Position numbers and translations under genes: made by a program. The notes beneath the pieces were generated by a model. It was not told where the DNA came from, did no database searches, and was given only the letters and a program-made list of their open reading frames with translations. Shown in pieces: positions 5,965 through 36,964 of a DNA stretch of 64,000 nt. Each line of letters begins with the position of its first letter. Position 1 is the first letter of the stretch. Source of the DNA: Albugo candida (Eukaryota); assembly GCA_040437565.1 (NCBI GenBank), contig JBDOQK010000031.1, positions 1 to 64,000 of the forward strand. The letters are read 5' to 3'.

Positions 5965-5974
5965 TATCGACGAC

Positions 5975-7597: not shown

Positions 7598-10500
7598 TTA
7601 CACTTGTGCCTGGATAACAGCAGTATTGGCGTCAGGAACTCGTTCCAAGACAGCTTCGTCAGCTATGGTACCCTCGTCAACTGGATCTGTATCGCTGGAT
7701 TCTCTCTGCATTCTCGTTCGTCTGTATGCGGTCCGTGAAAGCATCCCAACAAGAGCCAATATTGCAACAGCGCCCACCGCTGCGGCTGCAATTATTGCGT
7801 ACTGGATAGAATTGTACTTTTTCAGTCTCCCTCGCTCGACGTTCGCTTTCGCTGATGTACTGATAGTCATCGAGTCTTCGCCTTGTAAAACGCCATCGAT
7901 TGTGATCAAGTAGCAGTCGTAAAATGGTGCCGATTGATTCGTTACCAGTGAGGTTTTACAGAACCGACACGAGTCCGAAAAGCATCCAAGGCCTCCCTGC
8001 ACACAAGTCGAGTCATTCATCGCATATACGCCCATTTCTAGATCCCCGGAAGCCACCACATCGCCACAAGAGAATGAATCGATTGAATGATTTGGTACTT
8101 TGATTGGCTTTACTTGTTTGACGTCGGAACAGGCGAATAAATGCTCCGATTTGTTGGTGATTTTTGTATGACAAAAACGACAGTGAGATGTGAAGCATCC
8201 GAGACCGCCAAAGTAACAGTTTGGATCGTCAACGCCTTCGACTCCAACTGCTTTGTCACCTTGTGTTACGATCGCATTACAATCGTGGAGAAGAGAAGAA
8301 GCACTGGTGTTGGAATTCGAGCCGGTGAAGCTTACAAGCTCCTGGTCGGAGGTTTTGACTCCGTATGGAGTCACGAGGTAGCATGGAATGTAGGAACTCG
8401 ACTGAATTGTTTCCGATTGCTGGCAGAATCGACAAGTATCGGCGAAACATCCGAGTCCTCCAGCCTGGCAGGAAGTATCGTTCATGGCATAGATACCCAC
8501 AGCAAGATCGCCTGGGGACACAAAGGATCCACAACTGATTGTCTCTGCATCACTGACGGAGTCGACTTGAGACGGAAAGCTCTGTGACGAAGTTGTCGAG
8601 ACATTAAAGTTGTCACATGACAATAAATCAGCAGATTTTGGAGTCAATTCGGTTCTACAGAATCGACATGTTGATGTGAAACATCCCAAGCCTCCCGGTA
8701 CGCATGACGTATCATACACAGCATTTATTCCATTGTACTTGTCTCCGAACGCCACAAAGTCCTCACAATTCTCAATCACAGCAGCTGTATCATTGTCGAA
8801 TGTACCGGTTGGAGTCACAAGTGGCGAATTCGCTGTTGTCGAATTTTCTTCGCCCACGATGCCATCTTTTGTGACTCGATAGCAGTCGACAAAGTTGTGG
8901 GCTTCTGGTGTGTTTGCTGTCTTGCAGTATCGGCAATCATTTGAGAAGCATCCAATGCCGCCAGTAGCACACGTACTATCGTTCATTGCGTACACGCCAT
9001 TGGCGAGATCGTTAGCAGCAACAAGGTCGCCGCATAGTGCAACGAAATTGGAAGTACTTGGCTCATTAATGTTGTTTGTGTCACTAGCGGCTGTGGCACT
9101 TGGTTCGTTTGACGAATTGGATGGTGATTCCTGGGATCCAGCGTCTTGAACAGAAGAATTGCATGGAGCCAACTGAGCCGAAAGTTCGGTCAAATTTGAC
9201 TGACAGTAGCGGCAATCGTTTGTAAAGCATCCTTCTCCGCCGACAGCACATGTAGGATCGTGGACAGCGTTTATTCCGGCCAATCTGTCTCCGTACGAAA
9301 CAATATCGTCGCAATTTTGGATCACATCGGATGCTGAAGGATACGTTGACGAGTCCGAAGGCATACCGATAAAGCCCGAGTCGATAGGCGCGAATGATAT
9401 TCCGTTATCTTCGCCCCCTTCGATAGTGTCACATGGAACGAAGTAGGAAGATTGAACGCTTTCAAATCGCTTGCAGTATCGACAGATTCCATCGATACAA
9501 CCCGCTCCGCCATCGAGACACGAGGCATCTGTTGTGATGTCAACACCAACTAAAGCATCTCCGGCTGATACGATTTTCGTGCAAGTGGTTGGAAACGCTG
9601 GAGGTTGGGGTGTTGTTGGCTCGGGCGTTGTAGGCTCTGAGATATCGACTTCTGTGGGCTGAAAAATCATATCGTTCGCACCCGAGCTGGCGCTACTGGA
9701 AGAAGAACCCGATAAGGATGGCGACCCCATTGGGGTTTCTACTTCATGTGCTGGTTCCATGGTCGCTGAACTGCTTGTGTGTGGTACCTCATCCTCCGGT
9801 TCCGAGCTCAGGGGAGTCACATCTTTGTCGGTTGTGGGATGAGATGGCGATGGTTTGGGTGCACTTGGATTAGGTTCATCATATATTCCATGTTGCGATC
9901 CCTTTTCTCCATCATCGGGATTTGTTGTAGCAGGCGGCGTTGTTGTCGGAATCGATGGACCAGCAAGAGAGGAATCCGTATCGGAAGGTTTGGTCGGCTT
10001 GACATCGTTTGGTTCTGCTTCCGAACTGGATGCATGACTCGGCTCGACGCTCTCATCATTTAATGAAGATTCACTACTTCCTTCGGTAGCGACGTCGGTC
10101 GATTGTGTTGGGTGAATCGGCTCATCTTTCGGTGGAGCTTCAGCGCTTCCTTCGGTGGGAACGTCGATCGATAGATCCGTTTCATCATTCAAAGAACCTT
10201 CCGTCGGAGGAACAATGGCTTTAGATCCCGTCGATGGCGTCGGGTGGTTCGGCTCGACGCTCTCATCATTTAATGAAGAATCACTACTTCCTTCGGTAGC
10301 GACGTCGGTCGATTGTGTTGGGTGAATCGGCTCATCTTTCGGTGGAGCTTCAGCGCTTCCTTCGGTGGGAACGTCGATCGATAGATCCGTTTCATCATTC
10401 AAAGAACCTTCCGTCGGAGGAACAATGGCTTTAGATCCCGTCGATGGCGTCGGGTGGTTCGGCTCGACGCTCTCATCATTTAATGAAGAATCACTACTTC

Positions 10501-13500
10501 CTTCGGTAGCGACGTCGGTCGATTGTGTTGGGTGAATCGGCTCATCTTTCGGTGGAGCTTCAGCGCTTCCTTCGGTGGGAACGTCGATCGATAGATCCGT
10601 TTCATCATTCAAAGAACCTTCCGTCGGAGGAACAATGGCTTTAGATCCCGTCGATGGCGTCGGGTGGTTCGGCTCGACGCTCTCATCATTTAATGAAGAA
10701 TCACTACTTCCTTCGGTAGCGACGTCGGTCGATTGTGTTGGGTGAATCGGCTCATCTTTCGGTGGAGCTTCAGCGCTTCCTTCGGTGGGAACNNNNNNNN
10801 NNNNNNNNNNNNNNNNNNNNNNNNNNNNNNNNNNNNNNNNNNNNNNNNNNNNNNNNNNNNNNNNNNNNNNNNNNNNNNNNNNNNNNNNNNNNGGAACAAT
10901 GGCTTTAGATCCCGTCGATGGCGTCGGGTGGTTCGGCTCGACGCTCTCATCATTTAATGAAGAATCACTACTTCCTTCGGTAGCGACGTCGGTCGATTGT
11001 GTTGGGTGAATCGGCTCATCTTTCGGTGGAGCTTCAGCGCTTCCTTCGGTGGGAACGTCGATCGATAGATCCGTTTCATCATTCAAAGAACCTTCCGTCG
11101 GAGGAACAATGGCTTTAGATCCCGTCGATGGCGTCGGGTGGTTCGGCTCGACGCTCTCATCATTTAATGAAGAATCACTACTTCCTTCGGTAGCGACGTC
11201 GGTCGATTGTGTTGGGTGAATCGGCTCATCTTTCGGTGGAGCTTCAGCGCTTCCTTCGGTGGGAACGTCGATCGATAGATCCGTTTCATCATTCAAAGAA
11301 CCTTCCGTCGGAGGAACAATGGCTTTAGATCCCGTCGATGGCGTCGGGTGGTTCGGCTCGACGCTCTCATCATTTAATGAAGAATCACTACTTCCTTCGG
11401 TAGCGACGTCGGTCGATTGTGTTGGGTGAATCGGCTCATCTTTCGGTGGAGCTTCAGCGCTTCCTTCGGTGGGAACTTCGTCCGATAGATCCGTTTCATC
11501 ATTCAAAGAACCTTCCGTCGGTGGAACAATGGCTTTAGATCCCGTCGATGGCTTTTCAGAAATTGTCTCGTCTGAACGACTCGTAAATTGATCATTATAC
11601 GCATCACACTTTTCAAGGTGCTGCGATGATGGTGTGCTTTTGTACGCACAGAATCGGCATGCATTCGTGATGCATCCCAAGCCGCCATTCACACAGCTTG
11701 GATCCGCCACAATTTGAATTCCAGCGTTATAGTCGCCATCTGAGACTGTCACCGAGCATCTAGAGCCTTCTNNNNNNNNNNNNNNNNNNNNNNNNNNNNN
11801 NNNNNNNNNNNNNNNNNNNNNNNNNNNNNNNNNNNNNNNNNNNNNNNNNNNNNNNNNNNNNNNNNNNNNNNCGATAGATCCGTTTCATCATTCAAAGAAC
11901 CTTCCGTCGGTGGAACAATGGCTTTAGATCCCGTCGATGGCTTTTCAGAAATTGTCTCGTCTGAACGACTCGTAAATTGATCATTATACGCATCACACTT
12001 TTCAAGGTGCTGCGATGATGGTGTGCTTTTGTACGCACAGAATCGGCATGCATTCGTGATGCATCCCAAGCCGCCATTCACACAGCTTGGATCCGCCACA
12101 ATTTGAATTCCAGCGTTATAGTCGCCATCTGAGACTGTCACCGAGCATCTAGAGCCTTCTCCTTCAGAAGGAACAGGCTTGACAGCAGCCAAGTCATTGT
12201 CTCCCTGTAAGCTCGAGCTCTGTGTCTGTCCTTTATCATCCGTCATCGACGTAATTGGCTCCTCATTGCTGAGATCTGACTTGCCTGAGCTCTGTCCTTC
12301 ATCGGTCACTGGCGTCTCATTCAGCGGCGTAGTAGGCGACTCATTGCTGACATTCGACTTGCTCGATCCCTCAGTGCTCAGATCCGCCGTAGCTTTGGCT
12401 ACCGTCTCGTCATTCAGACTCGTGTATTGAGATCCCCAATCCGAACAGCCTTCAAGATGCGCAGAGAGTGGAGTTCGAACGTACTGGCAAAATCGACACT
12501 CTGGAGTAAAACATCCCAATCCACCGGATGCACACGAGTGATCTGTGATGATCTGTACACCAGCAAGATAATCTCCCGCTGAGATCGTCGCAGTGCAGTT
12601 GGCATTCACTGTCGGAACAGCGCTTGAACCAGAAGTCGTATCATTTTGAACCGGAGGAGAATTCGAATCTTGCGTCAGTCCAATGTCACTGGATCCATCC
12701 GTTTGAGCATTAAAGTCAGCACATTCAACAAAGTGTTGCGATAATGGTGTGTTTCTGGTCTTACAGAATCGACACACGTCCGAATAACAACCGAGACCTC
12801 CGTTGATGCACGTTGCATCAGTGAAAAGCTCGATTCCAGCATTCGTATCATCTGGTGAGACTGTCAATGCACATTCTTCATACTGAGCAACAGGTGTCAC
12901 ATCAGACGACCCCGACTGTGTGGTCAAGGGCGATGAAACAAGACGCGTATACTTCTGCCCGTAAGCATCGCAACTTCCCAAATGGGCCGAAAAAGTCGTA
13001 TTTTTATACCGACAGAATCGACAAGCACCTGAGAAACATCCCAATCCACCGTCGTTGCAGCTCGAGTCAGTGACAATTTGAATCCCGACATTATAATCGC
13101 CATCTGACACCGTTGCCGCACAGGTTTCGTCCGACAGAACGGGTACTGGGCTGGTCGTGTACTTGCCTCCATAGTCTGTACAATTGCCGAAATGCTCCGA
13201 CAACGGTGTGCTCAAGACCTTACAATACCGACAGACGCTTGCAAAGCATCCAAGTCCTCCATCCTCACACACAGTATCGGTGATGATTCGTATGCCCACA
13301 TTATAGTCGTCAATGGACACGGTCGCAGTGCATTCCAATGCGGAAGGCTCTTCGACCCCGCTGATCGAACCAGTCCGAGTGTTTGGACACAGACCGTAAT
13401 CGTGCGATTGAGGCGATTCTTCGACCTTACAAAATCGACAATTATCATTGATACATCCGAGTCCACCGCTCACACACGTCTCATCTGTGACGATGTCAAG

Positions 13501-13611: not shown

Positions 13612-13886
13612 ATGAAAAGGTGGAATTTTCTTGAGAGATTAGAGAGTATGGATCACGTGACGCGTCCTCGCCAAAATCAAGAATGCCATCACACACAGAT
13701 AACACGATTCGAGTCTCACGACGCCTCAACTGTGCAGTTCTTTTGGAACGGTCGACTAGCCATATAGACTCTTTGTGCTCAGGATGGACGGCTACGAATG
13801 ATTCCAAGCCAATAGACACACGACGCTTCCACATGGAGACCTCTGGCCTGTGGCTCTTGAACGCACTTTCATATCAGCCATTATAT

Positions 13887-16532
13887 CTATCGAATCTGTT
13901 GAATGGCTCTTTCCACTTGCGCAAGAAACGATGTCTCAATTGCCTCTATAATCGCATGTGATCGTCCATAACCGCACTTGAGGCTATTCAGCACGCATCA
14001 ATACACTGCAAATTCCTATACAAAACGTACATAAATAGCGCCTGATGGAGCAAAGTACGCGCCGCTTCCAAAAGCGGCAGCGCATGGGACGAGTAACTTT
14101 CGAGTTGTAAAAAAAGACATAAACGCGCCGATAATTGCACGCTTTTGGATGACTTCATTTCCGCGAGAGTACTGAGAATTCTCGCAAATGACAAACATAG
14201 TAATCCTCGCGAAGGAAGAGCTCTTGTTGGCAGAATCCATTCAGTCGCTTGATATTCTTCAAACGTATAGTGCAACGCACGTAATTGACGCTCTATTTCC
14301 GAGCACGATGGGTTGGAAAGCCATGCGTTTGATAGCGCGCGGGCTGTATTGGCTCGCTCAGCGTTTTTGTAATGTACTTGTAATAATTCCGCTACTTTCC
14401 ATTGCCGTTCCAACGAAAGGAGAGACGTATCAGAGCTCTTGAGAGCGGATTGCCACTCGGAAAACAGTTTTTCAAACTCCTTATCGATGTGTGTCTCATG
14501 CGCGCACACATAACATCGGAGAACTCGCTTTTCTGAATCCAATATTCGAACGCTTTCTGATGTACCGCTGCATTGATCGCATGCAAAGCCTTCCAGAAAT
14601 GCGTCTTCATCCGGTGCATTACAATTACAACGCTCACACAAACAATCGAAAAAGTAGGATGAGCGTAAAAGATTTTTCCGTAAGGGTGTGGGTAAGAAAA
14701 CGTCCACGTATGAAATCTGCCATACAAGCTGTTTATCATCCGCAGGAGAAGGGATATACGCGTACCGTGAGCTCCTGACCTGATAGAATCTTGTCAATGG
14801 TCTGAATAACAGCTTGTTTGCTGTTCAAATCGAAACGTACGATGCAATTGGGAGCGCAGGAATGGTTCAGCATGGCAGCTTTTGGGTACAATCCGATTCC
14901 AAGAGGTTCATTAAGCGTATTGCAAATAGTGAAAACGTTGCATTGAACGATACAGAAAAGCTTTTTGATTTTCAAAAGTATGCCTCTCATACTATCACTC
15001 TTCTCGATTTCTTGAGGCTGAAGCGAATTCGATTTGATGATATTTCCACGGCAAAGGTTCAAAATCACTAATTGAGCCATTTCATGAAATTCCTGCAATT
15101 TGTCTTCGCCAAAGTCGTCTAACGCACAAAGTTCGAATCAGAGCGAAATTGCGTTCAAAAAGCGGTAAGTACGACCATAGTGATGACAGAGATCGCCTAT
15201 GGGGTCCGATGAAGCGTTTTGGAACAATCGCGTTGTTAGACGCATGACAAAGAGAATGGTTGGATACGATTGCGAACGCTTTTTGCTGTTACGTGAACGC
15301 AGTAATTGTTCGACTGTTTCCCACAAAGAGCATTNNNNNNNNNNNNNNNNNNNNNNNNNNNNNNNNNNNNNNNNNNNNNNNNNNNNNNNNNNNNNNNNNN
15401 NNNNNNNNNNNNNNNNNNNNNNNNNNNNNNNNNNTCTGAATCCAATATTCGAACGCTTTCTGATGTACCGCTGCATTGATCGCATGCAAAGCCTTCCAGA
15501 AATGCGTCTTCATCCGGTGCATTACAATTACAACGCTCACACAAACAATCGAAAAAGTAGGATGAGCGTAAAAGATTTTTCCGTAAGGGTGTGGGTAAGA
15601 AAACGTCCACGTATGAAATCTGCCATACAAGCTGTTTATCATCCGCAGGAGAAGGGATATACGCGTACCGTGAGCTCCTGACCTGATAGAATCTTGTCAA
15701 TGGTCTGAATAACAGCTTGTTTGCTGTTCAAATCGAAACGTACGATGCAATTGGGAGCGCAGGAATGGTTCAGCATGGCAGCTTTTGGGTACAATCCGAT
15801 TCCAAGAGGTTCATTAAGCGTATTGCAAATAGTGAAAACGTTGCATTGAACGATACAGAAAAGCTTTTTGATTTTCAAAAGTATGCCTCTCATACTATCA
15901 CTCTTCTCGATTTCTTGAGGCTGAAGCGAATTCGATTTGATGATATTTCCACGGCAAAGGTTCAAAATCACTAATTGAGCCATTTCATGAAATTCCTGCA
16001 ATTTGTCTTCGCCAAAGTCGTCTAACGCACAAAGTTCGAATCAGAGCGAAATTGCGTTCAAAAAGCGGTAAGTACGACCATAGTGATGACAGAGATCGCC
16101 TATGGGGTCCGATGAAGCGTTTTGGAACAATCGCGTTGTTAGACGCATGACAAAGAGAATGGTTGGATACGATTGCGAACGCTTTTTGCTGTTACGTGAA
16201 CGCAGTAATTGTTCGACTGTTTCCCACAAAGAGCATTCGGATCGATGATTTCCTTCGATCCAGTCAAGTTTCTGGCATTTTTTGCTACAGTATCGAACCG
16301 TTTTGCATCGACTGCAGCGGAATAGATACGTTGTCGATTCAGATGGAAGCAACGCAGAACATGAGCTATGGACGTGATCTGGGATGGAAGTAAAACACCA
16401 ATTGCATGCGCATAGTGATATGGAAGCATATGCGTCATCGACCAACACTGAAATACCCGCAGGAAGATTGGTATTCGCAATAACAGTACGACCTCGAATC
16501 GGCTCGTGACTCACTCGAATCAGCTCGTCCAT
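13887..16532 (-). CDS. SET and MYND domain (SMYD-type) lysine methyltransferase, multi-exon; the middle part appears twice because of the gap duplication
   Basis: 'RGRTVIA', MYND finger 'CNWC..CSRCKTVRYCSKKCQKLDW...HRSEC', 'GLYPKAAMLNHSCAPNC', 'ISYVD' and post-SET 'YFFDCLCERC'. Sequence 14532-15334 repeats at 15435-16237 (offset 903). Confidence 0.88.
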
Positions 16533-16619
16533 GCTCGTATCAGATAAACTCAGATATATATCAGACTTGTCAAGCCTCAGACATTCAGATAACCGCCATA
16601 TTGTACAAGCAACATTTCA
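16533..16619. promoter_or_regulatory. Very short bidirectional promoter region between the SMYD and TPI start codons
   Basis: Only 87 nt separate the divergent ATGs at 16532 (-) and 16620 (+). Confidence 0.55.
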
Positions 16620-17491
16620 ATGGTTTCTTCCAACTCGCAGCGAAAGCCATTCATTGGCGGCAATTGGAAATGTGTATGTATTCCTTGTACAACGATATAC
16701 GCAGCTAATTGATTTATTGGTCCAGAATGGCGTTAAAGGCTTTATCGATCAATTTTTAAAAGAAACAATCAATCCAATTGAGACAGCTAAAGTCGACGTT
16801 GTCATCGCTGTCCCTTCGGTATACATTGAGTACACATCACGCTGTATCCAGTCGGGAATTGCTGTTGCGGCTCAAAATGTGAGTGCGACGGGCTTTGGCG
16901 CGTACACGGGCGAGATTGCTGCCCAGCAATTGAAAGGTTGGATCACTCTCTTGATGAACTTTATATGAACTCAGAAATCGCGTTGTAGATGTCGGAGTCA
17001 AATGGACGCTAACAGGACACTCAGAGCGTCGTTCAAAGTACCACGAGACCGACGAGATTGTCGCGACCAAGACCAAACAAGCTTTAGATGCCGACCTCAA
17101 TGTCATTTTTTGTATTGGCGAGTCACTGGAAGAACGTGAAGGAAACAAAACGATGGACGTTTTAATACAACAGACTCAAGCATTAATTCGTCTCCTTGAT
17201 GACGAGCAACTCTGGAAGCGTATTGTGGTCGCATATGAGCCCATTTGGGCTATTGGAACCGGTAAAGTAGCGAGCCCAGCACAAGCACAAGAAACACAAA
17301 AAGCATTGCGGGAATGGATCGCACAAAATGTGTCAGCTGATATCGGAAGTAACCTTCGTATCATTTATGGGGGCTCTGTCAATCTTGGCAATTGCGAAAA
17401 GCTCATCGCTTGCGAGGATGTCGATGGATTTCTTATCGGAGGTGCGTCATTAAAGCCGGAATTCGCCGAAATTATCCAGCGTGCGAGTTGA
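16620..17491 (+). CDS. TPI: Triosephosphate isomerase (exons 16620-16673, 16726-16936, 16989-17491)
   Basis: 'KPFIGGNWKC|NG', 'AAQNVS', 'GAYTGE', 'GHSERR', 'AYEPIWAIGTG', 'IIYGGSV' and 'DGFLIGGASLK'. Both introns are GT..AG and preserve frame. Confidence 0.96.
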
Positions 17492-17597
17492 TTCTGAAAC
17501 TTTGAGCATCGAGCACTGAATGCGAGAATATCTTGCAATTTTGAAAAAAAAGTGTTTATACACTAAAAGAATCGTTGTATTCATTTTGAGCATTATC

Positions 17598-19244: not shown

Positions 19245-20493
19245 TGCAAGAAGGCCAACGTTTGGATATAATTAAGACCCGTGAAGATTTTGTCCCAAGT
19301 CTAGGCGGGATGTGGCTCTTACTCAATGAGTGCAAAGTGTACTCTCTTCAATGTAACAAAGTTTTATTGTGGTTGTGNNNNNNNNNNNNNNNNNNNNNNN
19401 NNNNNNNNNNNNNNNNNNNNNNNNNNNNNNNNNNNNNNNNNNNNNNNNNNNNNNNNNNNNNNNNNNNNNNNNNNNNNTCCGTGTTTGGTGAGTCTTTGAC
19501 GCTAGAGTCCGTTGAGGAAGAAATTGGTGAAGGTGGTGTCTCCTCTGACGCACTTGTGATGCTTTTTCCGTGTAAGGATTCAAATCCACCGCTTTGCGAT
19601 AAACACGATGATGACGAGGGTGTCTCTTTGGAGTAAGTGGATGCGGGTGAGTCAATTCCCATTGTTTCCACAGCAGTGCATACATCGAAATCTTTATGTT
19701 TCTTTAGAATATCTTCGGGCAGAGATGGTTGGAGTTTGTCCCGCGGGGCGTTATACCACGGCGGGTCATCGGACACGATCTCCTCTTCCTCGTCACTGAA
19801 TGAGTAGACGTACTCGGATTTGGAAAGGCAACCAGATGGTTTCGCACCGTTTACGGCTCGTGTGAGGGAAGGCGATGATATGGGACTCATGTACAATGCA
19901 AGAAGGCCAACGTTTGGATATAATTAAGACCCGTGAAGATTTTGTCCCAAGTCTAGGCGGGATGTGGCTCTTACTCAATGAGTGCAAAGTGTACTCTCTT
20001 CAATGTAACAAAGTTTTATTGTGGTTGTGGTTTCCCAGTACGTAGCGAGTTCCACTTTTGACACGACTGGAAAATTGTCTTGGCTTTTTGTGTCACTTGA
20101 AGTATACTCAACTACTGGCTTTTTGGAACATTTCAAATAGAAGCTACATGTGGTGCGTCCTCTACAGTCAAACTCTTTTAGTGTTGAGCCAATCAGATGC
20201 GCCCACACCAGTCGCGCAGCTGTAACAGGGTCAGCTGCGTGTAATGTTTCTAAAAGTTGCGGCTCACAGAGCCCTTAGTAACGCGTGGTTATACCACAAC
20301 CAAAAAGAATATTGCTTTTTCTATGCCCTAACAATGCGGTATAGATTATGTGTTTTATCGTACATTACGCCTAAAATACGATCGCAGGAGTCCTGAGTGG
20401 TACCAGAGAGGCCGTCTCAGAGCATGGTTCATAAATATTTGGTACACGGGGATATAGCGATTGAAACAAAATCTAAACGATATATTTCCAAAT

Positions 20494-23128: not shown

Positions 23129-23191
23129 AAATCGACAATGAAGCAGTAAATACAATCCAAAACTCCAAGTTGAATCATCCAGTCCTCACTC

Positions 23192-24751: not shown

Positions 24752-24922
24752 TGAGTGGTAGCCAACAACACGCGTACCGTATCGTAATCAAGACGTACGA
24801 ACAGATGATCAGCCATACATTCTATTGTCAAATTAAGTATTAATGCAAGGCGGAATGTCAACATCGCCCAATTCTATCTATCGTTCAGAAAATACATAGA
24901 CCGAATCTTTCCAGATAACCTT

Positions 24923-26894: not shown

Positions 26895-27917
26895 TGGTAA
26901 ATCATAAGAGAGGCAGCAGTCCCTTTCTGTCACTTTAGACTCGTGTACTGTACGACAAAGTAGCAGCTTGTTTATTTTTACTCGCCCGTTTTCTTTCTTT
27001 TCACCTCAGCGGCTGAAGCGATGAGTAGCTAGTCAATTAGGTTCAAGTTGCGCTTTTTTATATTTTGTCTTGCAAACGAATCGAACGATAGACGACGAGC
27101 CGAATGGAATGCTTTTTCTGTTAAGATTTCTATACGAAGCTTGAAATTACACAATCAAATGAGAAAGAATCCTGATTGTTACTATGTATTGCTGCAGCTT
27201 TTTATGCACAAAAGTAGTGTTCTTGTGCTTGGCGCTATTGGGCAGAATCAACGGTAAGCTCGTGCTCAATCGCAAAGCGTAAGGAAGGCGTTGGCAAAAG
27301 ATCAACTAATCCGTACGAGTGTACTTGATACCCTGATGAATCTGATCGTGGTTGATCGTATGACTCATATTCTATACACATGCCAGGTTGCAAATCCGTT
27401 TAAAAGTATCGTAAAGGTTACCGTGTTTATTAGCATAGATCAGACTTGACCGCATGCGNNNNNNNNNNNNNNNNNNNNNNNNNNNNNNNNNNNNNNNNNN
27501 NNNNNNNNNNNNNNNNNNNNNNNNNNNNNNNNNNNNNNNNNNNNNNNNNNNNNNNNNNGGAAGGCGTTGGCAAAAGATCAACTAATCCGTACGAGTGTAC
27601 TTGATACCCTGATGAATCTGATCGTGGTTGATCGTATGACTCATATTCTATACACATGCCAGGTTGCAAATCCGTTTAAAAGTATCGTAAAGGTTACCGT
27701 GTTTATTAGCATAGATCAGACTTGACCGCATGCGTCCGGTATCAGAAGTTTAGAAATGACGCACTTGAACGTAAAATCCGAACCAGTGAATGTCACATTC
27801 GGCAGCGCTTACATGCGTTTACATGTCTCTATGTGCGTTCACTTCGGATCTTCTGTAACAACTTAAAGACAGACGGATGTCGTGGGATCATCGATACTAC
27901 GAGTGTATAGCTCTATT

Positions 27918-30787
27918 TTACCACATAAAGCGTCCTGTAGTTCCATCGACCCAAGTGAATGGATAATGTAAAAAAATTATCATTGTGACCAGATTGATGG
28001 CACTATAGAGCACAAGAGTTGAGTACATCTGCTGCTTGCGTTGCTAATACGATAGCAAAAGGGCAAATGCACATTCAATGACTGTATCTGGGGAATATTG
28101 TCAAATTTTTGAGTGCATTGCTTACCTTGCCAGTGTTCAACTGAAAAATGATTGTCGGAATAATATAGTAGCGTGGCCTGAAAACTCCAATTTATTACAA
28201 CGAAAAAGTATCCAGAATCAAGATGGCAACGTACTCGACAAGCGGAGAGGGGACCAGAGTCAAACACACCGCAACAAAGTAAACCAGGATCCATAATGGC
28301 GATCGATTTTTTCCTGAACCAACCGTAGAATTCAGGGTATATCAAATGAAGTCGAAGCTGAGCGCACCTAATTCACGGAAACCAAACCATCCAAAATAGA
28401 TATACATGGCCAAAGGTGCGAATTTCGCCATTGAATAGCGACGGAAAAATTTCCGCCAAATATAAAACGTATAATGACGATTATCAGCCAACAGGAACGG
28501 GTGCACTGGACTGCAGTACGCAATGATTGTCAGTACAGCTGCGAGTAACGATGTCATCTGAATGATTTTGCTTCGTTTCAAGCACTGTTTTGACATGAAG
28601 CACCAGAATTGGTACAGGTTATCGGGGAGGAGGAGACTGGTGCTGAATCCGGAGGCAATCGGAAAAGTGAAGTATAGTAACTGAGCAGCGTGAAAGCTCA
28701 TTTCGTGATTGGATTTATCGCCTGGCACACCAAAACAGCGGTAGTAATGAGTCACGTGAAAGCGACGGGATCACGTACCCAGCACAATACTTCCATTTTT
28801 GATCACAAATATCATGAAGCAAATGATCACACCAGTAAACGACCACAAGTGAATCATGAGAGAGAAAATATCTGTATGACCAACACGAATAGCTCGAGAT
28901 AGGATGGACGGCAGCCTTTGAAAGCAAGCAATTCAGTTGCGTATCTGGATGATTAAATTCACTCTACCTTCCAAAAAGTGGTTCGCCATTTATTTGCCCA
29001 TGGGTACTCGCGGAACTAGCAAGCAAAATGCGTTGCAGCATGATTTGATACAAGCCTAGACGGGTCATTCACCTGTATATGAATGATGCGTGTTTTGTTT
29101 CGAGAAATCGAACCAGTGTCGTTCCTGCCACAAATCCGACCCAAATGACGTTATTTTGTCGAAAAAGCACTGCCAAAGCTCCACACTACTTCGAAAAAAA
29201 AGTATTTTGGCAATAGCGAACGTTCACTGAGCTTTCAATCGTACCAAAGCGCTGGGAAGGAATGTGAATAATGCACGTTTGTGCTTTCCAAAATCGACAC
29301 GTTCGGCCAAGTAGTACATTAAAAGCACAAAGTATATGGAGCCAACATCGGTATAGAACAAAAATGTGTCGAAGAAGAGAACGGGGAAGGACAAGAGGAC
29401 TGCAGTATAAAGGACCACATGCTGTTCACTTGGCTAGGCAGCACGGGTATCCGGTCACAACGATGCTGCAACAACAGGTGGACGTTTTACCGCACAAAGC
29501 AACCGGAGACGTGGTATAAGGAACGAAAGAGCAACCGCAAACCATAGATTCGTACGCCGAAAGTTTGTCAGAGAGCACACATCATCAAGTCGGAAGGCAT
29601 TCAGCGTCGAGCTGATGTACGCAAATAAAGTGGCAAAATAGTATAATCCAGGAAATGTGGTGATTTTTGTATTCCAGTACGCTATTCAACGGAACCGGCG
29701 CAAATGATGAGCAAACTACAAGAAAAGTCCAAAGATCCTTACCAAAGTTTCCGTTGCAGTACGCGCGTGTCTGATCAAAATGGAAGAGCTCATCCTGTCA
29801 ATTACAAATCACAGCAAAATCAAAGTCAAGAGGATGTAATAGAACACATCAGAAGCTACATGCACCATATAAGGTTGATCGACAATCTGATTTACAATTC
29901 GGGCTATTACTGCATATGAAAAGGCAATTCCGACGGCAAAACNNNNNNNNNNNNNNNNNNNNNNNNNNNNNNNNNNNNNNNNNNNNNNNNNNNNNNNNNN
30001 NNNNNNNNNNNNNNNNNNNNNNNNNNNNNNNNNNNNNNNNNNCGAACGTTCACTGAGCTTTCAATCGTACCAAAGCGCTGGGAAGGAATGTGAATAATGC
30101 ACGTTTGTGCTTTCCAAAATCGACACGTTCGGCCAAGTAGTACATTAAAAGCACAAAGTATATGGAGCCAACATCGGTATAGAACAAAAATGTGTCGAAG
30201 AAGAGAACGGGGAAGGACAAGAGGACTGCAGTATAAAGGACCACATGCTGTTCACTTGGCTAGGCAGCACGGGTATCCGGTCACAACGATGCTGCAACAA
30301 CAGGTGGACGTTTTACCGCACAAAGCAACCGGAGACGTGGTATAAGGAACGAAAGAGCAACCGCAAACCATAGATTCGTACGCCGAAAGTTTGTCAGAGA
30401 GCACACATCATCAAGTCGGAAGGCATTCAGCGTCGAGCTGATGTACGCAAATAAAGTGGCAAAATAGTATAATCCAGGAAATGTGGTGATTTTTGTATTC
30501 CAGTACGCTATTCAACGGAACCGGCGCAAATGATGAGCAAACTACAAGAAAAGTCCAAAGATCCTTACCAAAGTTTCCGTTGCAGTACGCGCGTGTCTGA
30601 TCAAAATGGAAGAGCTCATCCTGTCAATTACAAATCACAGCAAAATCAAAGTCAAGAGGATGTAATAGAACACATCAGAAGCTACATGCACCATATAAGG
30701 TTGATCGACAATCTGATTTACAATTCGGGCTATTACTGCATATGAAAAGGCAATTCCGACGGCAAAACCCGATATCGGTCGTGTCAT
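27918..30787 (-). CDS. ALG10: Dol-P-Glc:Glc2Man9GlcNAc2-PP-Dol alpha-1,2-glucosyltransferase (ALG10/DIE2), multi-exon; part appears twice around the gap at 29943-30042
   Basis: 'QPYM|DELFHFDQTRAYCNGNF', 'KITTFPGLYY', 'FLFYTDVGS', 'VHPFLLADNRHYTFYIWRK' and C-terminal 'RFMW*'. Confidence 0.9.
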
Positions 30788-30872
30788 TTACAATCCAAAA
30801 TAGTGTTCCAACAAAATTGACCCTCTTCCATCCAGCCATATCAACCTACACTAGTGTGTCTACACAATCTCA

Positions 30873-31955
30873 TCACGATGGAGATCGTCGATATGGCTCT
30901 TCCAATCGCTCTCTCATCTGATCAAGCAATTTACATTCGATACCCGCTTCCTTCTGCGCTACAAGGCGCATGAGCATAGGCTTCCACTTCCTCCCTCTCG
31001 TGTTGATGAACCAGTTATTGACTTGTTCTATTGTGATGCCTCCTTGCATTCCAAGCATATCTTTCTCATCTTCGGTTGGGTAGGGATGGTGGAGATGATC
31101 TTCAAACCATTGCTGTAGTACTTCTTTTGCTGTCTTGGATAAATTTGTGCGTTTCTTACATCCTCGACTGCAATCCATCAAAGGGGAACCCGGCGCATTG
31201 GCCGAAGCACTGCTCCATACATTGCCTTCCAGTATACCCATTGCGATACTGGAGTTATCGTCCCATGATGAAGACGCCGTCGAACTAGTGTGTCGTAAGG
31301 AAACAGCACGTGCTAATTGATGCAAATCTCGAATAGCGTGTCGATACCGTAGCGTTATGGATTGATCATTGATCATGTGGAGGACTTGTTCAAACTTGTT
31401 GAACGCTTCACCCTCATACTGCTGCTGGTATCGTTCCATGCTCCCAACAAGATCCGGCTGGCTCTTGAGTGCGTCAGAAAGCATCGAACGGACGCTGGAA
31501 TCATCCGATAATGATTGACTGGTTTCATTAGGCGATTTTGCGCCATCTTTATCGGTTTTGTATGTTTGTTTCAGACTTTCCAAGCTAATCAATTCCGCAT
31601 CTTCGGGAAGCAAATTGCAATGAGTAAATGACCAAATCAAGCTCCGATCTAATGCGTCGAATTCGCTATGTGATTGTTCCTGTAACAAATGATCACGAGC
31701 CACTTGCGCAGCGACCTGAAGCTCCATTGTGGGGAGGCACACGCCGTTTTCTTCCAACTCTTCCTCCTCATCCAAAACAAACGACAAAATCTGATGCAGC
31801 TGGAAATCAATTGCAGCAGTGTCGTCTTCCTTATCCTCCGGATCCTTGAGTGATAGTTCGTCGGAGCATACAGCCTCGGCATTCTCCTCCTCCTGCTGAC
31901 CTCGATGTCGCCGCATGCTTCCCGATTTATAATTGAATCGATTAGGGAGCGTCAT
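30873..31955 (-). CDS. TALE-class homeodomain transcription factor
   Basis: 'KKRTNLSKTAKEVLQQWFEDHLHHPYPTEDEK...QVNNWFINTRGRKWK' has the three-residue loop extension with PYP and the WFIN helix 3. Confidence 0.92.
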   Translation of the reverse strand: MTLPNRFNYKSGSMRRHRGQQEEENAEAVCSDELSLKDPEDKEDDTAAIDFQLHQILSFVLDEEEELEENGVCLPTMELQVAAQVARDHLLQEQSHSEFDALDRSLIWSFTHCNLLPEDAELISLESLKQTYKTDKDGAKSPNETSQSLSDDSSVRSMLSDALKSQPDLVGSMERYQQQYEGEAFNKFEQVLHMINDQSITLRYRHAIRDLHQLARAVSLRHTSSTASSSWDDNSSIAMGILEGNVWSSASANAPGSPLMDCSRGCKKRTNLSKTAKEVLQQWFEDHLHHPYPTEDEKDMLGMQGGITIEQVNNWFINTRGRKWKPMLMRLVAQKEAGIECKLLDQMRERLEEPYRRSPS

Positions 31956-32218
31956 TCGCACGTCTGCCAGTTAGTTTTTTTCTGCACTCAACAAACATTC
32001 TCAGAGAAAAGGGGAGTCGAAAAATGATGGAAATTGACCCGTTCGCCTTTTTGCGAGCCATAATCGTGCATACGACTCGGCAAGTGTCCGTTACATGTGA
32101 CCGAGCTGTCTCGTTTCAAGCCTGCAACATGAAGTCTAATTCGAGCTGAAAACTACCCGGCTCACCAACGACTCTGCGACTCGACTTGCATGTTAATTTA
32201 TCATATAGCGAGACAGCG

Positions 32219-35200
32219 ATGGATGTAAGACAATTGTCAAGATTCTTGGTATTCATGGCCTGGAGCGCACACGCAGCGACCATTTGGGAGGATCATGTCG
32301 AGATGGGAGATCACATTGTTGCCACTGGCAGTACCTTGGTACTACGAGGACTCAATCGTGTTGAAGGACAGCTTCTGATCCAACATGGCGCAAGTGTAAG
32401 TGTCGATCCAGGTCGAGATGCAGTTTTGATTGTGAGTGGGATTCAAGTGAATGGGTCATTTTTAATTGGGAATGCAACACATCCTTACATTCGCAAAGCA
32501 ATTATTCACATTGCGTGTAATCCAACACTTTCCAAGTGGAATGAGCAAAGAAAAGGGATTGTAGTGCATCGTGGTGGATGGATTGGACTGTTTGGTAAGA
32601 AGGGTTCCAGTCGACATACTTGGACTAGACTTTATGATCATGCGTACAAAGGCACCACAATACTCCGGTTTGATGTACCTGAAGACTGGGATATTGGCGA
32701 TGAGATTTCGATTGCCTCAACCGATTTTGATCCGCATCAAACAGAGAAAAGGACAATTAGAGAGATTGATGGAAATGTGGTGCAAGTCGACATACCGCTG
32801 GACTTTACACATTTCGGGCGGATCACTGAAAATGTAGATCAGCGAGCCGAAGTCGCTTTGCTCACTCGAAGTATTGTATTTCAAGGATGTTACGAAAAGA
32901 ATGCTGCTTTGATCGGCGTTGGAGGGCACATGATGATCATGGAGGGCTTTTACAGAGCTCAGATACAAGGTGTAGAAATTCGGAATTTTGGTCAGGCAGA
33001 CAAGATTGGACGGTACCCCATCCATTTCCATATGGCCGGGTATGTGCCTGATGGAACATTTATTCGCTACACTGCTATTCACAACTCCAACTTTCGTGCC
33101 ATCACTGTGCACGGAACTCAAAATGTTCTCGTTCAAGGAAATGTTGCGTTCAATATAACGGGTCATGCAGTCATGTTAGAGGATGGAGCCGAAAGTGAAA
33201 ACGTGTTCTCGGATAATTGTATCATGCTCGTTTTAGAGAAGACTAGCGGTGAACGCCTGGGCTCGGATACTTCAATTGCGTTGAGTGCTTTCTACATCAC
33301 AAATACGAACAACACATTCACAAGAAACACTGTAGTGGGTGTAGAAGGAAGTGGATTTTGGATCCATACGCGGCTGAATGTCAAAGGTCTTAGTTTTGCC
33401 ACAGGAATGTATGATGATGTCCATCCGTACCTCATCCCAATAAAAGAAATTCGGAACAATTTCGTGCATTCTACAAAAGTTGGCTTTCGGATCGAATCGC
33501 CTGATTTGGATGGGGATGATATACCTCGACAGATCAGTTATTCACCGCCATATACGTATATGCCAGTTCTCATCCCGTCTATAGATATGTTCACCGTTCA
33601 TCACTCACGCGAAGGCGGATGGTTTCGTATATATCGACTTATAGTCAACGAGTGGATTGTGTCTGATTGCACGGAAGGGATCCAAGTGCTGGCACAAGGA
33701 AACACACCGACTTTCATAACGGAAGCGTTTATTCGAAATTCGCTCTTTGTCGGAAGCTCTTCGAATCGCGGTAATTTACTCATGACTCCCTGGCAAAGGA
33801 TCAATTTTATCGAAAATCGATCAGAGAGCGCAATCGATCGAAGTTTGGGCGATCGAATGGGAATCAAGTTGTACGATGGACCGTTGTTTCTCGAGGACAC
33901 CAAGTTTATGAATTGGGTCTCAGCACCATGCTTGAACTATTACATCCCAGCCATTGGTGCTCGACAATACAATACATTTGCTATGTCCACCCTTACACAC
34001 TCGCGTAATGTTACTTTTGAAAAGACCGATCATCGTTATTTCATATCTGATCGTGATTCTGATGGAGGAAAGACCACGACAATGCTTGATGAAGATGGGT
34101 CCGTCACTGGCTATAGAGGATCTACGCTCCTGCCGTATTGGGAGTTCTATTCGACTATCCAATGTCGAGAAGCTTCATCGTGGAGATTAGTGTGTCCTCA
34201 TNNNNNNNNNNNNNNNNNNNNNNNNNNNNNNNNNNNNNNNNNNNNNNNNNNNNNNNNNNNNNNNNNNNNNNNNNNNNNNNNNNNNNNNNNNNNNNNNNNN
34301 NGTAATGTTACTTTTGAAAAGACCGATCATCGTTATTTCATATCTGATCGTGATTCTGATGGAGGAAAGACCACGACAATGCTTGATGAAGATGGGTCCG
34401 TCACTGGCTATAGAGGATCTACGCTCCTGCCGTATTGGGAGTTCTATTCGACTATCCAATGTCGAGAAGCTTCATCGTGGAGATTAGTGTGTCCTCATCG
34501 ATATGTGAATTTGGATGTGATCGCTACGGATATCTCTCAGGATAAAAATCGTTATGGAGAATTGATAGTCTACCGAAACAATGTAAATGAGTCTTCTAGG
34601 ACGGCACCTTTGCTGACTTTCCAAGGTCAATATATCCCCATTTCTAATGGCTGGCTGTACCATCCGATTGTATCGCCCGGGGCTTACTATACGCTTCGAT
34701 TCACAAAGATGACTCCCCAACAAATCAGTCTTATCATTTCCTGGGCCGATGCGACAGATCAAGTCGAAATTTCAATCATTTACCCATATGATACATTGAT
34801 TTTGAATCTCACCACGCAACATGGCGAATCGTTATCCACAACTACAAATCTTGGAGTGTGCAGGAACTGCTACACTTACGATTCGAATAGCCAAATACTT
34901 CGATTCAATATCGCACAAGAGTACGAGCGTCCAAGCCAAGGATCTGCCTGTCCTATCGACGGATGTGTTACCGTCACCATCCTGGCAGCTCTTCCAAACT
35001 CGGCGTACGTGACTGAAGATACGACTATTCGAACGCTGGAGAAGACGAAAAGAGTTGAAATAGAAGAGTCAACTTGGATCCAAAAACGACTACAAAGGAG
35101 AGATGCAATGGAGCAAGCTATGGAAGAAATAAAATGGTGCGCCTTAGTAGATCCTTGTATCGAGCTGGTTGATGTCGGCAATTATCGAAATGGAATCATG

Positions 35201-36964
35201 GCGTATTTTGACAATGAGTGCGTAGGTTTGGGCTGTTTTACGGCATCTTGTCGGTATTGCAAGCTGGACACAAGTATCGCTACGGTGCCCTTCTTTCCAT
35301 GTCCGTTTGAATTTCAGGTGGCCAAATCACGACTGAACAATACTCTGTCAAGTACACTTGTGGATACCTCCTCTACACAACGCAATGACTCGGATGGAAA
35401 TCCTTTGGATTATTCGTTTGGCAATGCGAAAATATCAATTCCCGGAAATGTCGATACGAATGTATTGGTTTGGAATACACTCAGCAAGAACAAAGATACT
35501 TCCTGTAGCGTTCTTGTCTCTCGTGGAGACATGCAAGTGGGTGTGAGTGCTATCAATGATTCGCTGTGTTCGCAGGGAGGTCTTGGCTGCTTTACGCTCC
35601 AGTGCCGTTTTTGTAAGACAAGAGATACTGAGCAATCGAATCACTTTTATAGCTGTTCAACAGCAACAATATTGGAGGGTGAGACTGGCAATATCGATGA
35701 GGATACGCTTCGAGATACTTGTTGGAAATTTGCATCACGAGGAGACCTGAAGGCTGGTGTCACCTGTCTAACCGATGCACGTTGTAAAACTGGTGGCTTA
35801 GGCTGTATCTCTGATTCCTGCCGCTTTTGCAGAGTTTTCAATTCGACTCAAGGAAGTCCGTATATGGCGTGTGAGCAGGTGATACAAACTCGAAATGGTT
35901 CACAAGTTGATCTCCCAATAGTGAACAAGGCAATTACAATCGATCGATGTCGTAGTCTAGTTTCCTCGGGAGACATTGCTGCTGGCATATCAGCTCTTTG
36001 GGATGAAACATGCAACTCTGGTGGTCTCGGTTGCTTCAATTCGGAATGCCGTTTCTGCGCTACGTTTCGATCCACTCAATCCGATACGTTCCATAATTGT
36101 GCTGCGTTGAAGCCTATGATCGGCAATCAGTCGACTGGCTCCTTGACAGAGACCGCAAAGGCTTCGAATCAAGTATCGCTGAATGTGGTATCACCGGTAG
36201 ATTCATGCACTCGTCTGAGCACTATTGCTCAGAAAAAGGCTGGGGTCTTTACTGTCACCGATTATACATGCTCAAACAAAGCCGAACCGATTGATCGTGA
36301 CCGGCACTGTGTGACACCTTCATGTAGGCAATGCAGGCTACCCGGACATAGATCGCATACCGCTGGCCTGGAAATTTGCCCGCTTACGGTGGAGCACTAT
36401 CTACTGAGGCGATCGGTGCGTACAAGTGAGGAGTGTGCGGATGCTGTATCGTTTGCAGACTCACGAGAAGGAGTTTCTGCACAGTATGATACCAATTGCG
36501 CTCGGAATCGAACGAGTATTCCATCCGCGTCGCAAGAAAGCTGTTTTGCAACACTTTTATGTAGATTCTGTCAATTTAGAGAAACAGCACGCAGCAGGAA
36601 ACTTGTTCATTGCTCGGATCGTGAAACTTTCCATCATCTACCCAGTTCAAGTGATATCACGCCACAAAGCATCAAAGATTCAAGTCGAGAAAGCGGTAAA
36701 GCCACATTCGATCAGCGGGTGAATGGATACGCCATATCAAATACTAACGAAAGGCGCGATAGTACGAGAGCAAATCTCCGCTTCCTTTCGGTAGTTGTGT
36801 GCGGATTAGCTGTTGGATGTGTTGTGGGTGTTTTCGCGTACAAGTTGAGAAGGTATCACTCTGCTCGACATAATCAGGTCTTTGATTTGCCGACATCCGC
36901 AGACGTCGATCAGCAGAATTGTAGTGGTGTGAATCATGAAGGTAGCACACATGTGAAGCTTTAA
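32219..36964 (+). CDS. TMEM2/CEMIP-like G8 plus parallel beta-helix protein with six C-terminal six-Cys modules and a TM anchor (~197 nt repeated around the gap at 34202-34301)
   Basis: Signal peptide MDVRQLSRFLVFMAWSAHA, G8 domain, 'TWTRL', 'WDIGDEISIASTDF', 'RAEVALLTRSI', 'GQ...GRYPIHFH', 'AITVHGT', 'GHAVMLEDGAE', 'LYDGP' and 'DEDGSVTGY'. TM FLSVVVCGLAVGCVVGVFAY is followed by KLRR. Confidence 0.85.
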   Translation: MDVRQLSRFLVFMAWSAHAATIWEDHVEMGDHIVATGSTLVLRGLNRVEGQLLIQHGASVSVDPGRDAVLIVSGIQVNGSFLIGNATHPYIRKAIIHIACNPTLSKWNEQRKGIVVHRGGWIGLFGKKGSSRHTWTRLYDHAYKGTTILRFDVPEDWDIGDEISIASTDFDPHQTEKRTIREIDGNVVQVDIPLDFTHFGRITENVDQRAEVALLTRSIVFQGCYEKNAALIGVGGHMMIMEGFYRAQIQGVEIRNFGQADKIGRYPIHFHMAGYVPDGTFIRYTAIHNSNFRAITVHGTQNVLVQGNVAFNITGHAVMLEDGAESENVFSDNCIMLVLEKTSGERLGSDTSIALSAFYITNTNNTFTRNTVVGVEGSGFWIHTRLNVKGLSFATGMYDDVHPYLIPIKEIRNNFVHSTKVGFRIESPDLDGDDIPRQISYSPPYTYMPVLIPSIDMFTVHHSREGGWFRIYRLIVNEWIVSDCTEGIQVLAQGNTPTFITEAFIRNSLFVGSSSNRGNLLMTPWQRINFIENRSESAIDRSLGDRMGIKLYDGPLFLEDTKFMNWVSAPCLNYYIPAIGARQYNTFAMSTLTHSRNVTFEKTDHRYFISDRDSDGGKTTTMLDEDGSVTGYRGSTLLPYWEFYSTIQCREASSWRLVCPHXXXXXXXXXXXXXXXXXXXXXXXXXXXXXXXXXXNVTFEKTDHRYFISDRDSDGGKTTTMLDEDGSVTGYRGSTLLPYWEFYSTIQCREASSWRLVCPHRYVNLDVIATDISQDKNRYGELIVYRNNVNESSRTAPLLTFQGQYIPISNGWLYHPIVSPGAYYTLRFTKMTPQQISLIISWADATDQVEISIIYPYDTLILNLTTQHGESLSTTTNLGVCRNCYTYDSNSQILRFNIAQEYERPSQGSACPIDGCVTVTILAALPNSAYVTEDTTIRTLEKTKRVEIEESTWIQKRLQRRDAMEQAMEEIKWCALVDPCIELVDVGNYRNGIMAYFDNECVGLGCFTASCRYCKLDTSIATVPFFPCPFEFQVAKSRLNNTLSSTLVDTSSTQRNDSDGNPLDYSFGNAKISIPGNVDTNVLVWNTLSKNKDTSCSVLVSRGDMQVGVSAINDSLCSQGGLGCFTLQCRFCKTRDTEQSNHFYSCSTATILEGETGNIDEDTLRDTCWKFASRGDLKAGVTCLTDARCKTGGLGCISDSCRFCRVFNSTQGSPYMACEQVIQTRNGSQVDLPIVNKAITIDRCRSLVSSGDIAAGISALWDETCNSGGLGCFNSECRFCATFRSTQSDTFHNCAALKPMIGNQSTGSLTETAKASNQVSLNVVSPVDSCTRLSTIAQKKAGVFTVTDYTCSNKAEPIDRDRHCVTPSCRQCRLPGHRSHTAGLEICPLTVEHYLLRRSVRTSEECADAVSFADSREGVSAQYDTNCARNRTSIPSASQESCFATLLCRFCQFRETARSRKLVHCSDRETFHHLPSSSDITPQSIKDSSRESGKATFDQRVNGYAISNTNERRDSTRANLRFLSVVVCGLAVGCVVGVFAYKLRRYHSARHNQVFDLPTSADVDQQNCSGVNHEGSTHVKL

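What the first reader, a model, noticed from the sequence alone, without database searches (positions are those of the whole stretch)
7598..36964. An unassigned 51-aa six-cysteine module shared by two unrelated, linked cell-surface proteins: a candidate surface glycan-binding and remodelling system
Seen in sequence: the module C-x20-C-x6-C-x4-C-x2-C-x13-C, consensus C..xVSxGD...G.....DxxCxxGGLGC[FI]xxxCR[FY]C.......S....C. It occurs 13 times in the mucin-like protein (7598-13611) and 6 times (3 canonical, 1 shortened, 2 with loop insertions) in the G8/beta-helix protein (about 35155-36615). Both are signal peptide + ectodomain + single TM. The spacing does not match EGF, CBM1, hevein/CBM18, PAN/apple, Kazal or elicitin as I know them. 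Inference: a mobile disulphide-bonded extracellular domain, probably binding carbohydrate or mediating homotypic docking, that couples a non-enzymatic adhesin/scaffold to a putative glycan-cleaving enzyme. I recall similar repeats in loosely annotated oomycete proteins, so the family may be widespread but uncharacterised.
Basis: partly seen in the sequence, partly recalled or inferred. Interest (0 to 1): 0.8.

Follow-up and report, generated by a model that had tools for sequence, protein, structure and literature searches.

The report
Unnamed cysteine module on water-mould surfaces
Water moulds carry a small, unnamed six-cysteine protein module, in strings on their surface proteins and attached to several sugar-processing enzymes; it probably grips cell-wall glucan, but binding has not been shown.

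Summary
The module is real: 13 distinct copies in gene A, 6 in gene B. It is an oomycete-wide family (217 clusters) with no Pfam or NCBIfam match. It folds confidently (pLDDT 93.6) and has no PDB fold match.

Partner domains give the best functional clue. Among the 150 listed clusters, 12 carry another domain: CEMIP/TMEM2-like (5), GH72-like (3), GH17 (1), GH81 (1) and His-1 DUF7492 (2). The three glycoside hydrolase families act on beta-1,3-glucan, and the module sits where CBM43 or CBM52 sit in fungal enzymes. Best reading: an unclassified CBM-like module for wall beta-glucan (0.55). Binding is not shown, and no Trp is conserved.

A dedicated A-B system is weak. A-B modules are no more alike (0.39) than A and unlinked paralogues (0.37). 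An intervening housekeeping gene is also syntenic. Phytophthora keeps A-type proteins, with no named B orthologue found. B is a vertically inherited oomycete TMEM2 relative that lacks the lectin domain.

The parts
7598..13611 (-). Gene A: type I surface protein, 13 distinct six-Cys modules in Ser/Thr/Pro-rich linkers, one C-terminal TM
   Evidence: spans two N gaps; ungapped relatives P0001 and P0002
11986..13551 (-). A modules 1-6 (13378-13551, 13171-13344, 12961-13134, 12712-12885, 12436-12609, 11986-12159)
11483..11871 (.). Assembly artefact: 289-bp duplicate of 11872-12160 (holds a second copy of module 6 at 11597-11770) plus 100-N gap
10039..11552 (-). Mucin-like 210-bp (70-aa) tandem array, 3.6 + 3.1 copies around N gap 10793-10892; copy number uncertain (P0001 has about one unit)
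7904..9595 (-). A modules 7-13 (9422-9595, 9152-9325, 8873-9046, 8606-8779, 8372-8545, 8120-8293, 7904-8080)
7739..7801 (-). A transmembrane segment
   Evidence: hydropathy
32219..36964 (+). Gene B: CEMIP/TMEM2-like ectodomain + 6 modules + TM; only CEMIP beta-helix match in this genome
32315..32632 (+). G8 domain (PF10162)
   Evidence: E 3.9e-8
32918..33481 (+). CEMIP beta-helix (PF24606)
   Evidence: E 2.4e-54
34005..34498 (.). Assembly artefact in B: 197-bp duplicate either side of N gap 34202-34301
34643..35014 (+). CEMIP domain X (PF24605), 27.2 bits against a cut-off of 27.6
35144..36622 (+). B modules 1-6 (35144-35311 shortened; 35492-35665, 35708-35881, 35936-36109 canonical; 36194-36388, 36422-36622 with loop insertions)
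36782..36841 (+). B transmembrane segment
   Evidence: hydropathy
13612..32218 (.). 18.6 kb between the divergent genes, holding unrelated genes (TIM, ankyrin-FYVE, ubiquitin-like, DEAD helicase, Tudor, TALE homeobox and others)

Best explanation
The 51-aa module is an autonomously folding extracellular domain of oomycetes that works like a carbohydrate-binding module, most likely for the organism's own wall beta-1,3-glucan. Shown: it is a repeat with six near-invariant cysteines, it folds in prediction, and it is appended to several unrelated glycan-active cores. Inferred: three disulphides; weak binding per copy made strong by arrays; A-type proteins (modules + mucin stalk + TM) tie the plasma membrane to wall glucan; enzymes, including B, use the same module to stay on their substrate. 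B is an ancestral oomycete TMEM2/CEMIP relative in which the module array stands in for the animal lectin domains; its substrate and even its catalysis are unknown. A and B are neighbours because of an old, loosely conserved gene block, probably a relic of the local origin of the fusion, not because they form an obligate pair.
For: (1) 12 of the 150 listed clusters carry another domain above or near cut-off: CEMIP 5, GH72 3, GH17 1, GH81 1, DUF7492 2. The modules are C-terminal to the core in all 12. (2) Catalytic Glu motifs are present in the GH17, the GH81 and 2 of 4 GH72-like proteins checked (motif roles recalled, GH81 signature from PMC4176579). (3) The GH72-like profile's best PDB match is yeast Gas2 (E 1.6e-4); its model ranks Gas2/Gel4 first. 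Gas2 carries C-terminal CBM43 (PMC5478894 passages) and S. pombe GH81 Eng1 three CBM52 (PMC9609564 passage). (4) GH17, GH72 and GH81 are beta-1,3-glucan families and Phytophthora walls contain beta-1,3-glucan (PMC4176579 passages); three of three drawn from 5-7 such families among 34 has p about 0.002-0.006 (rough and post hoc). (5) 30 of 110 non-oomycete CEMIP relatives carry PA14, ILEI, WSC/C-lectin, malectin, ConA-like or CBM6 (hand count; names checked on 7); in P0260 WSC and C-lectin follow domain X, the slot the modules fill in B. (6) Modules are 91% identical to the A. laibachii orthologue, the rest 60%. (7) All 12 module-bearing CEMIP proteins form one clade (support 100) that splits Saprolegniales from the rest.
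Against: No binding data. The module has no conserved Trp: 185 of 986 copies hold any Trp, and only two aromatic-leaning columns exist (F/Y 83% and 70%), which may be core residues; I could not see model coordinates. About 138 of 150 clusters have no enzyme partner. The GH17 fusion is a one-member cluster and may be a gene-model artefact; the GH81 and DUF7492 carriers are unnamed records. In one search GH1 and GH2 enzymes score within tenfold of GH72, so the fold does not fix the substrate. DUF7492 as an LPMO rests on a His after the predicted signal peptide and a weak AA11 hit (E 0.082) that the two-sequence profile did not repeat. Human TMEM2 ectodomain showed no hyaluronidase activity or HA binding in one study (PMC10206443 passages). 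This genome has no GH72-like fusion and its best DUF7492 match showed no module in the frames read.
Confidence: 0.55

Rival explanations
1. The module is a ligand-free structural bead: a disulphide-locked, protease-resistant spacer that lifts enzymes and mucin stalks off the membrane, as EGF-like repeats do.
For: Copy number varies from 1 to 13; most carriers have nothing else; conserved non-Cys residues are Gly, Asp, Arg, Ser, Thr with few aromatics; a GH72 gene in this window has a weak EGF-like match in the equivalent slot (E 0.02-0.06).
Against: Secreted forms with no TM end in a single terminal module (GH17 P0182, DUF7492 P0196 and P0199), where a spacer has nothing to space. The enzyme partners found are all glycan-related.
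Confidence: 0.2
2. The module is a protein-docking unit: A is a membrane scaffold that recruits B and other module-bearing enzymes.
For: A and B are linked here and in A. laibachii (CCA22893, CCA22904), and module genes lie near the G8 gene in Lagenidium (N0F65_010747, _010759) and P. oligandrum (Poli38472_000765, _000740). Random placement gives p about 0.008.
Against: A-B module identity 0.39, A to the two unlinked Albugo-type paralogues 0.37, A to Phytophthora 0.46. The intervening ubiquitin gene is Poli38472_000777, also near B. In P. insidiosum the G8 gene and one repeat gene are on different contigs. B is already membrane-anchored. No named Phytophthora B orthologue among 120 listed hits.
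Confidence: 0.1
3. The module is an adhesin for host or substrate surfaces (plant callose or wall glycans, fungal or animal surfaces) rather than for the organism's own wall.
For: Long mucin-stalked arrays resemble adhesins; oomycete CBEL binds cellulose and mucin-like proteins sit at the surface (PMC3532174, PMC2248709, PMC10351607 passages). Plant callose is also beta-1,3-glucan (PMC4176579).
Against: The family is shared by plant biotrophs, root pathogens, a mycoparasite, an insect pathogen and fish-pathogen relatives (names; lifestyles recalled), which points to a common self ligand. It is strongly conserved between Albugo species.
Confidence: 0.15

Closest known systems
CBM43 / X8 Cys-box of fungal GH72 (Gas1, Gas2, Gel4) and plant GH17
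   Same: Cys-rich extracellular module C-terminal to a beta-1,3-glucan enzyme (PMC5478894 passages); the GH72-like carriers match Gas2 best.
   Different: No Pfam match in 34 of 34 alignment members; no fold match; about 51 aa against about 85-90 aa (recalled); occurs in arrays of up to 13.
CBM52 of S. pombe Eng1 (GH81)
   Same: Small module in tandem after a GH81 core: three in Eng1 (PMC9609564 passage), four in P0190.
   Different: No Pfam match; CBM52 motif and cysteine spacing differ (recalled, not aligned here).
TMEM2 / CEMIP (human cell-surface hyaluronidase, PDB 8c6i)
   Same: Gene B has G8 + beta-helix + domain X; 8c6i matches residues 152-759 at E 1.3e-42.
   Different: No ILEI/lectin domain: 96 aa between G8 and the beta-helix model against 273 aa in a fish relative. 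Six Cys modules and a C-terminal TM instead. Hyaluronan is not a known oomycete polymer (recalled).
CBEL (CBM1 + PAN) and oomycete mucin-like proteins (CAR, PPMUCL)
   Same: Surface proteins with Cys domains and Ser/Thr linkers, implicated in wall organisation or adhesion (PMC3532174, PMC2248709 passages). Databases label A-type proteins 'mucin-like'.
   Different: No CBM1 or PAN match. CAR has one N-terminal Cys region (PMC2248709 legend), not a repeated module. The PPMUCL paper could not be read and its sequences were not compared.

Membership tests
Carbohydrate-binding module (general) | Discrete, independently folding domain | tested here: met
   AF2 pLDDT 93.6, pTM 0.76, five models 89.8-93.6; prediction only
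Carbohydrate-binding module (general) | Contiguous with carbohydrate-active enzymes | tested here: met
   GH17, GH72-like, GH81 fusions; CEMIP-like and DUF7492 cores
Carbohydrate-binding module (general) | Measured carbohydrate binding | not testable with these tools
   needs a binding assay
Carbohydrate-binding module (general) | Conserved exposed aromatic residues | tested here: inconclusive
   two F/Y-leaning columns, no conserved Trp; exposure not visible
CBM43 / X8 | Profile match to the family | tested here: not met
   no such Pfam hit in 34 of 34 members at E up to 10
CBM43 / X8 | Same fold | tested here: inconclusive
   0 Foldseek hits and 0 of 48,161 chains at Z 2 or more; a 58-aa query gives low scores
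CBM52 | Profile match to the family | tested here: not met
EGF, CBM1, hevein/CBM18, PAN, Kazal, WSC, elicitin | Profile match to the family | tested here: not met
   PDB profile search gave only two C2H2 zinc-finger fragments at E 0.23
CEMIP/TMEM2 (gene B) | G8 + CEMIP beta-helix + domain X | tested here: met
   (domain X 0.4 bit under cut-off here, above it in orthologues)
CEMIP/TMEM2 (gene B) | Lectin-like (ILEI/GG) domains of the animal proteins | tested here: not met
   no PF15711 at E up to 0.1; insertion absent by spacing
CEMIP/TMEM2 (gene B) | Polysaccharide-cleaving activity | not testable with these tools
   active site unassigned even in TMEM2 (PMC10206443 passages)
PPMUCL / CAR mucin-like family | Conserved N-terminal domain followed by a mucin domain | not tested
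   no reference sequence in session; paper not in library (one search lists only citing papers)
Co-selected two-gene system (A + B) | Linkage tighter than neighbouring genes, joint presence, co-expression | tested here: inconclusive
   linkage seen in 3 of 4 other named species with both genes; a neighbour gene is also syntenic; joint presence fails in Phytophthora; co-expression not measurable

The most novel reading that the evidence does not exclude
The module is a new-fold beta-1,3-glucan-binding family that oomycetes (perhaps other stramenopiles) use as a general wall anchor, and gene B is a wall-glucan-remodelling enzyme. That would give the TMEM2/CEMIP family a non-animal member with a testable substrate and a route to its disputed catalytic site.
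Probability: 0.3. Interest if true: 0.8.

Novelty: new variant of a known kind. Interest (0 to 1): 0.58.

Why it matters
Little is known about proteins that link the oomycete membrane to its glucan-cellulose wall. An unnamed domain found in 217 clusters, with no fold match, would be a new CBM family, a probe for wall glucan and a possible wall target. It would also explain many 'hypothetical' and 'mucin-like' oomycete genes. The oomycete TMEM2 relative lacks the lectin domain and so offers a simpler system for asking what the CEMIP beta-helix does, which is disputed for the human protein (titles of PMC10474455 and PMC10276149; passages of PMC10206443).

Tried and rejected
Homodimer prediction of one module: no verdict, score 0.00, alignment not used, fold uncertain; it says nothing for or against docking. 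ESM Atlas: no usable hit for a 4-module piece or for P0026. Second-look fold alignment: nothing to compare. Sequencing-run search: no RNA holder listed on record; run X6 laid 0 contigs. Disulphide pairing from co-loss of cysteines: 594 of 604 complete rows keep all six, and the 10 exceptions look like misalignment, so no pairing was obtained. Receptor-kinase idea: P0017 (modules + TM + kinase, P. cactorum) is nearly identical to kinase-free P0006 up to the TM (87% with gaps) and is a one-member cluster, so I treat it as a gene-model fusion. P0160's unrelated N-terminus was set aside as a likely fusion too. TM/tail similarity did not pick clear A orthologues outside Albugo. No RxLR or LFLAK motif in A or B. 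The careful tree did not finish; the quick tree was used, 73 of 78 rows (P0215, P0261, P0264, P0273, P0278 left out by length). Earlier findings were not available.

Full report
Observation. The window comes from an oomycete close to Albugo laibachii: the best named hits are its mucin-like protein CCA22893 and its G8 protein CCA22904. Gene A (- strand, 13611 to 7598) shows 14 copies of C-x20-C-x6-C-x4-C-x2-C-x13/14-C, against none in 2000 shuffles, and its 84 cysteines equal 14 x 6. One copy is a 289-bp duplicate across an N gap, so 13 are distinct, as in the ungapped proteins P0001 and P0002. Gene B (+ strand, 32219-36964) has three canonical, one shortened and two loop-extended copies after a G8, CEMIP beta-helix and domain X core. 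Both end in one TM segment. A contig with spliced introns from a run guessed to be RNA covers the 3' half of A; that run also holds 0.94 of the sampled words of B's 5' part. This shows presence only, not level or timing.

The family. A profile of the 19 copies found 217 clusters at 50% identity (152 at E up to 1e-10), of which 150 were listed. Named carriers are Albugo, Phytophthora, Nothophytophthora, Plasmopara, Pythium, Globisporangium, Lagenidium, Aphanomyces and Saprolegnia. The 67 weakest clusters were not shown, so the outer range is unknown. Three protein queries found four module genes in this genome, a lower bound. Besides the cysteines, the most constant residues are two Gly, an Asp before Cys2, the Arg after Cys4, a late Ser and two F/Y/L positions. 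No Pfam family matched more than 1 of 34 alignment members at E up to 10, NCBIfam matched 0 of 8 carriers, and the PDB profile search gave only noise. AlphaFold2 gives a confident small alpha/beta domain (pLDDT 93.6, pTM 0.76). Foldseek found no PDB match at E up to 10, and VIA-align found 0 of 48,161 chains at Z 2 or more. For 58 residues this does not prove a new fold.

Function from partners. I scanned the 130 new clusters with Pfam and used precomputed domains for the other 20. Twelve of 150 carry a recognisable second domain: CEMIP-like 5, GH72 3, DUF7492 2, GH17 1, GH81 1; two further hits (PT repeat, DHHC) were below cut-off. Three more proteins align with the GH72-like group as fragments or a degenerate copy. 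The modules always follow the core. GH17, GH72 and GH81 are beta-1,3-glucan families and Phytophthora walls contain this polymer (PMC4176579, passages). The GH72-like group matches yeast Gas2 best by profile and by fold, though GH157, GH158, GH1 and GH2 follow closely and the model is weak overall (pLDDT 52.6). Gas2 carries CBM43 in this position (PMC5478894, passages) and S. pombe Eng1 carries three CBM52 (PMC9609564, passage). Both DUF7492 carriers have a His just after the predicted signal peptide, as LPMOs do (recalled), with only a weak AA11 hit (not repeated). Against a CBM reading: no conserved Trp, most carriers are non-enzymatic, and the GH17 case rests on one gene model.

Gene B. Its core matches human TMEM2 (8c6i, E 1.3e-42) but lacks the lectin-like insertion (domain layout from PMC10206443 passages). 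Other relatives of this core carry sugar-binding domains in 30 of 110 listed cases, 12 of them animal ILEI entries with much redundancy (hand count). All 12 module-bearing cores form one clade with support 100, with Saprolegnia and Aphanomyces sister to the rest (quick tree, 73 of 78 rows). B's first module is closest to modules of its own orthologues (all five top matches, 0.53-0.65). The fusion is therefore old and vertically inherited. Whether B is catalytic is open; one study found no activity for purified TMEM2 ectodomain (PMC10206443, passages), and two others disagree with each other (PMC10474455, PMC10276149; search listing only).

The linkage. Two of four module genes within 25 kb is unlikely by random placement (p 0.008). 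By accession or locus tag and equal contig length, a module gene lies 11 numbers from the G8 gene in A. laibachii, 12 in Lagenidium giganteum and 25 in Pythium oligandrum. In P. insidiosum the G8 gene and the repeat gene seen are on different contigs of a fragmented assembly. I did not read the DNA of these genomes. The ubiquitin-like gene between A and B is 12 tags from the G8 gene in P. oligandrum but on another contig in Lagenidium, so the block is loosely conserved and one neighbour cannot settle whether A-B is kept more tightly. Module identity shows no special A-B bond (0.39, against 0.37 to unlinked paralogues and 0.46 to Phytophthora). Phytophthora has many A-type proteins and no named B orthologue among 120 listed hits (a word-based search, so absence is not proven). 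The simplest account is an old neighbourhood in which B gained the module from a nearby repeat gene (inference).

Mechanism. Most likely each module binds wall beta-glucan weakly. Arrays on mucin stalks anchor membrane to wall (A), and arrays behind catalytic cores hold enzymes on their substrate (B, GH72-like, GH81). Shown: repeat, conservation, predicted fold, fusions, ancient origin. Inferred: disulphides, ligand, role. Odds: CBM-like for own wall 0.55, inert spacer 0.2, host adhesin 0.15, protein docking 0.1.

Prior description. Ten library searches turned up no description of this repeat; the motif plus 'oomycete' gave 0 papers. I saw keyword passages only, not whole texts or supplements, of PMC3091767, PMC10206443, PMC7285336, PMC3532174, PMC10351607, PMC2248709, PMC3174193, PMC4176579, PMC5478894, PMC9609564 and PMC3681718. 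The PPMUCL paper and the Phytophthora wall proteomes appeared only as citations, and CAZy, InterPro, CDD and AlphaFold DB were not available, so an earlier name cannot be excluded.

Verdict. It works like CBM43 or CBM52 by architecture but fails membership of both by profile. Novelty: new variant of a known kind. Interest 0.58.

Noticed in passing
window N gaps (11 runs of 100 N): Every gap is flanked by duplicated sequence of 66-803 bp, so repeat counts and ORF lengths in this assembly are inflated.
   Followed up: yes
window 56957-58174 (+): A canonical GH72 glucanosyltransferase with a weak EGF-like domain and a C-terminal TM lies about 20 kb beyond gene B; it has no module.
   Followed up: partly
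L017:4645-5694 (G000:C64) and L018:4507-5523 (G000:C30): Two more module genes in this genome: 5 modules with no TM (349 aa) and 3 modules + TM (338 aa).
   Followed up: partly
L024 (G000:C5 near 516578-517177): A DUF7492-like protein with His right after the likely signal peptide, possibly an unclassified LPMO; no paper in the library names DUF7492.
   Followed up: partly
P0147, P0166, P0180, P0169, P0148, P0162: An oomycete family of divergent GH72-like TIM barrels with 3-4 modules and usually a TM; P0169 has lost the catalytic motifs.
   Followed up: partly
P0183, P0190: Unnamed carriers with divergent modules; P0183 has an N-terminal Cys motif that I recall from diatom proteins, so the family may reach beyond oomycetes. 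Taxon not shown by any search.
   Followed up: no
window 2314-10000, run X1: One contig with two spliced-out introns (2422-2473, 7167-7215) runs across MutS, JmjC and the 3' half of gene A with no joint inside A; transcripts of neighbouring genes probably overlap.
   Followed up: partly
window 10039-11552: The 70-aa mucin unit has 3.6 + 3.1 copies here and about one in P0001: a length polymorphism or a collapsed contig.
   Followed up: no
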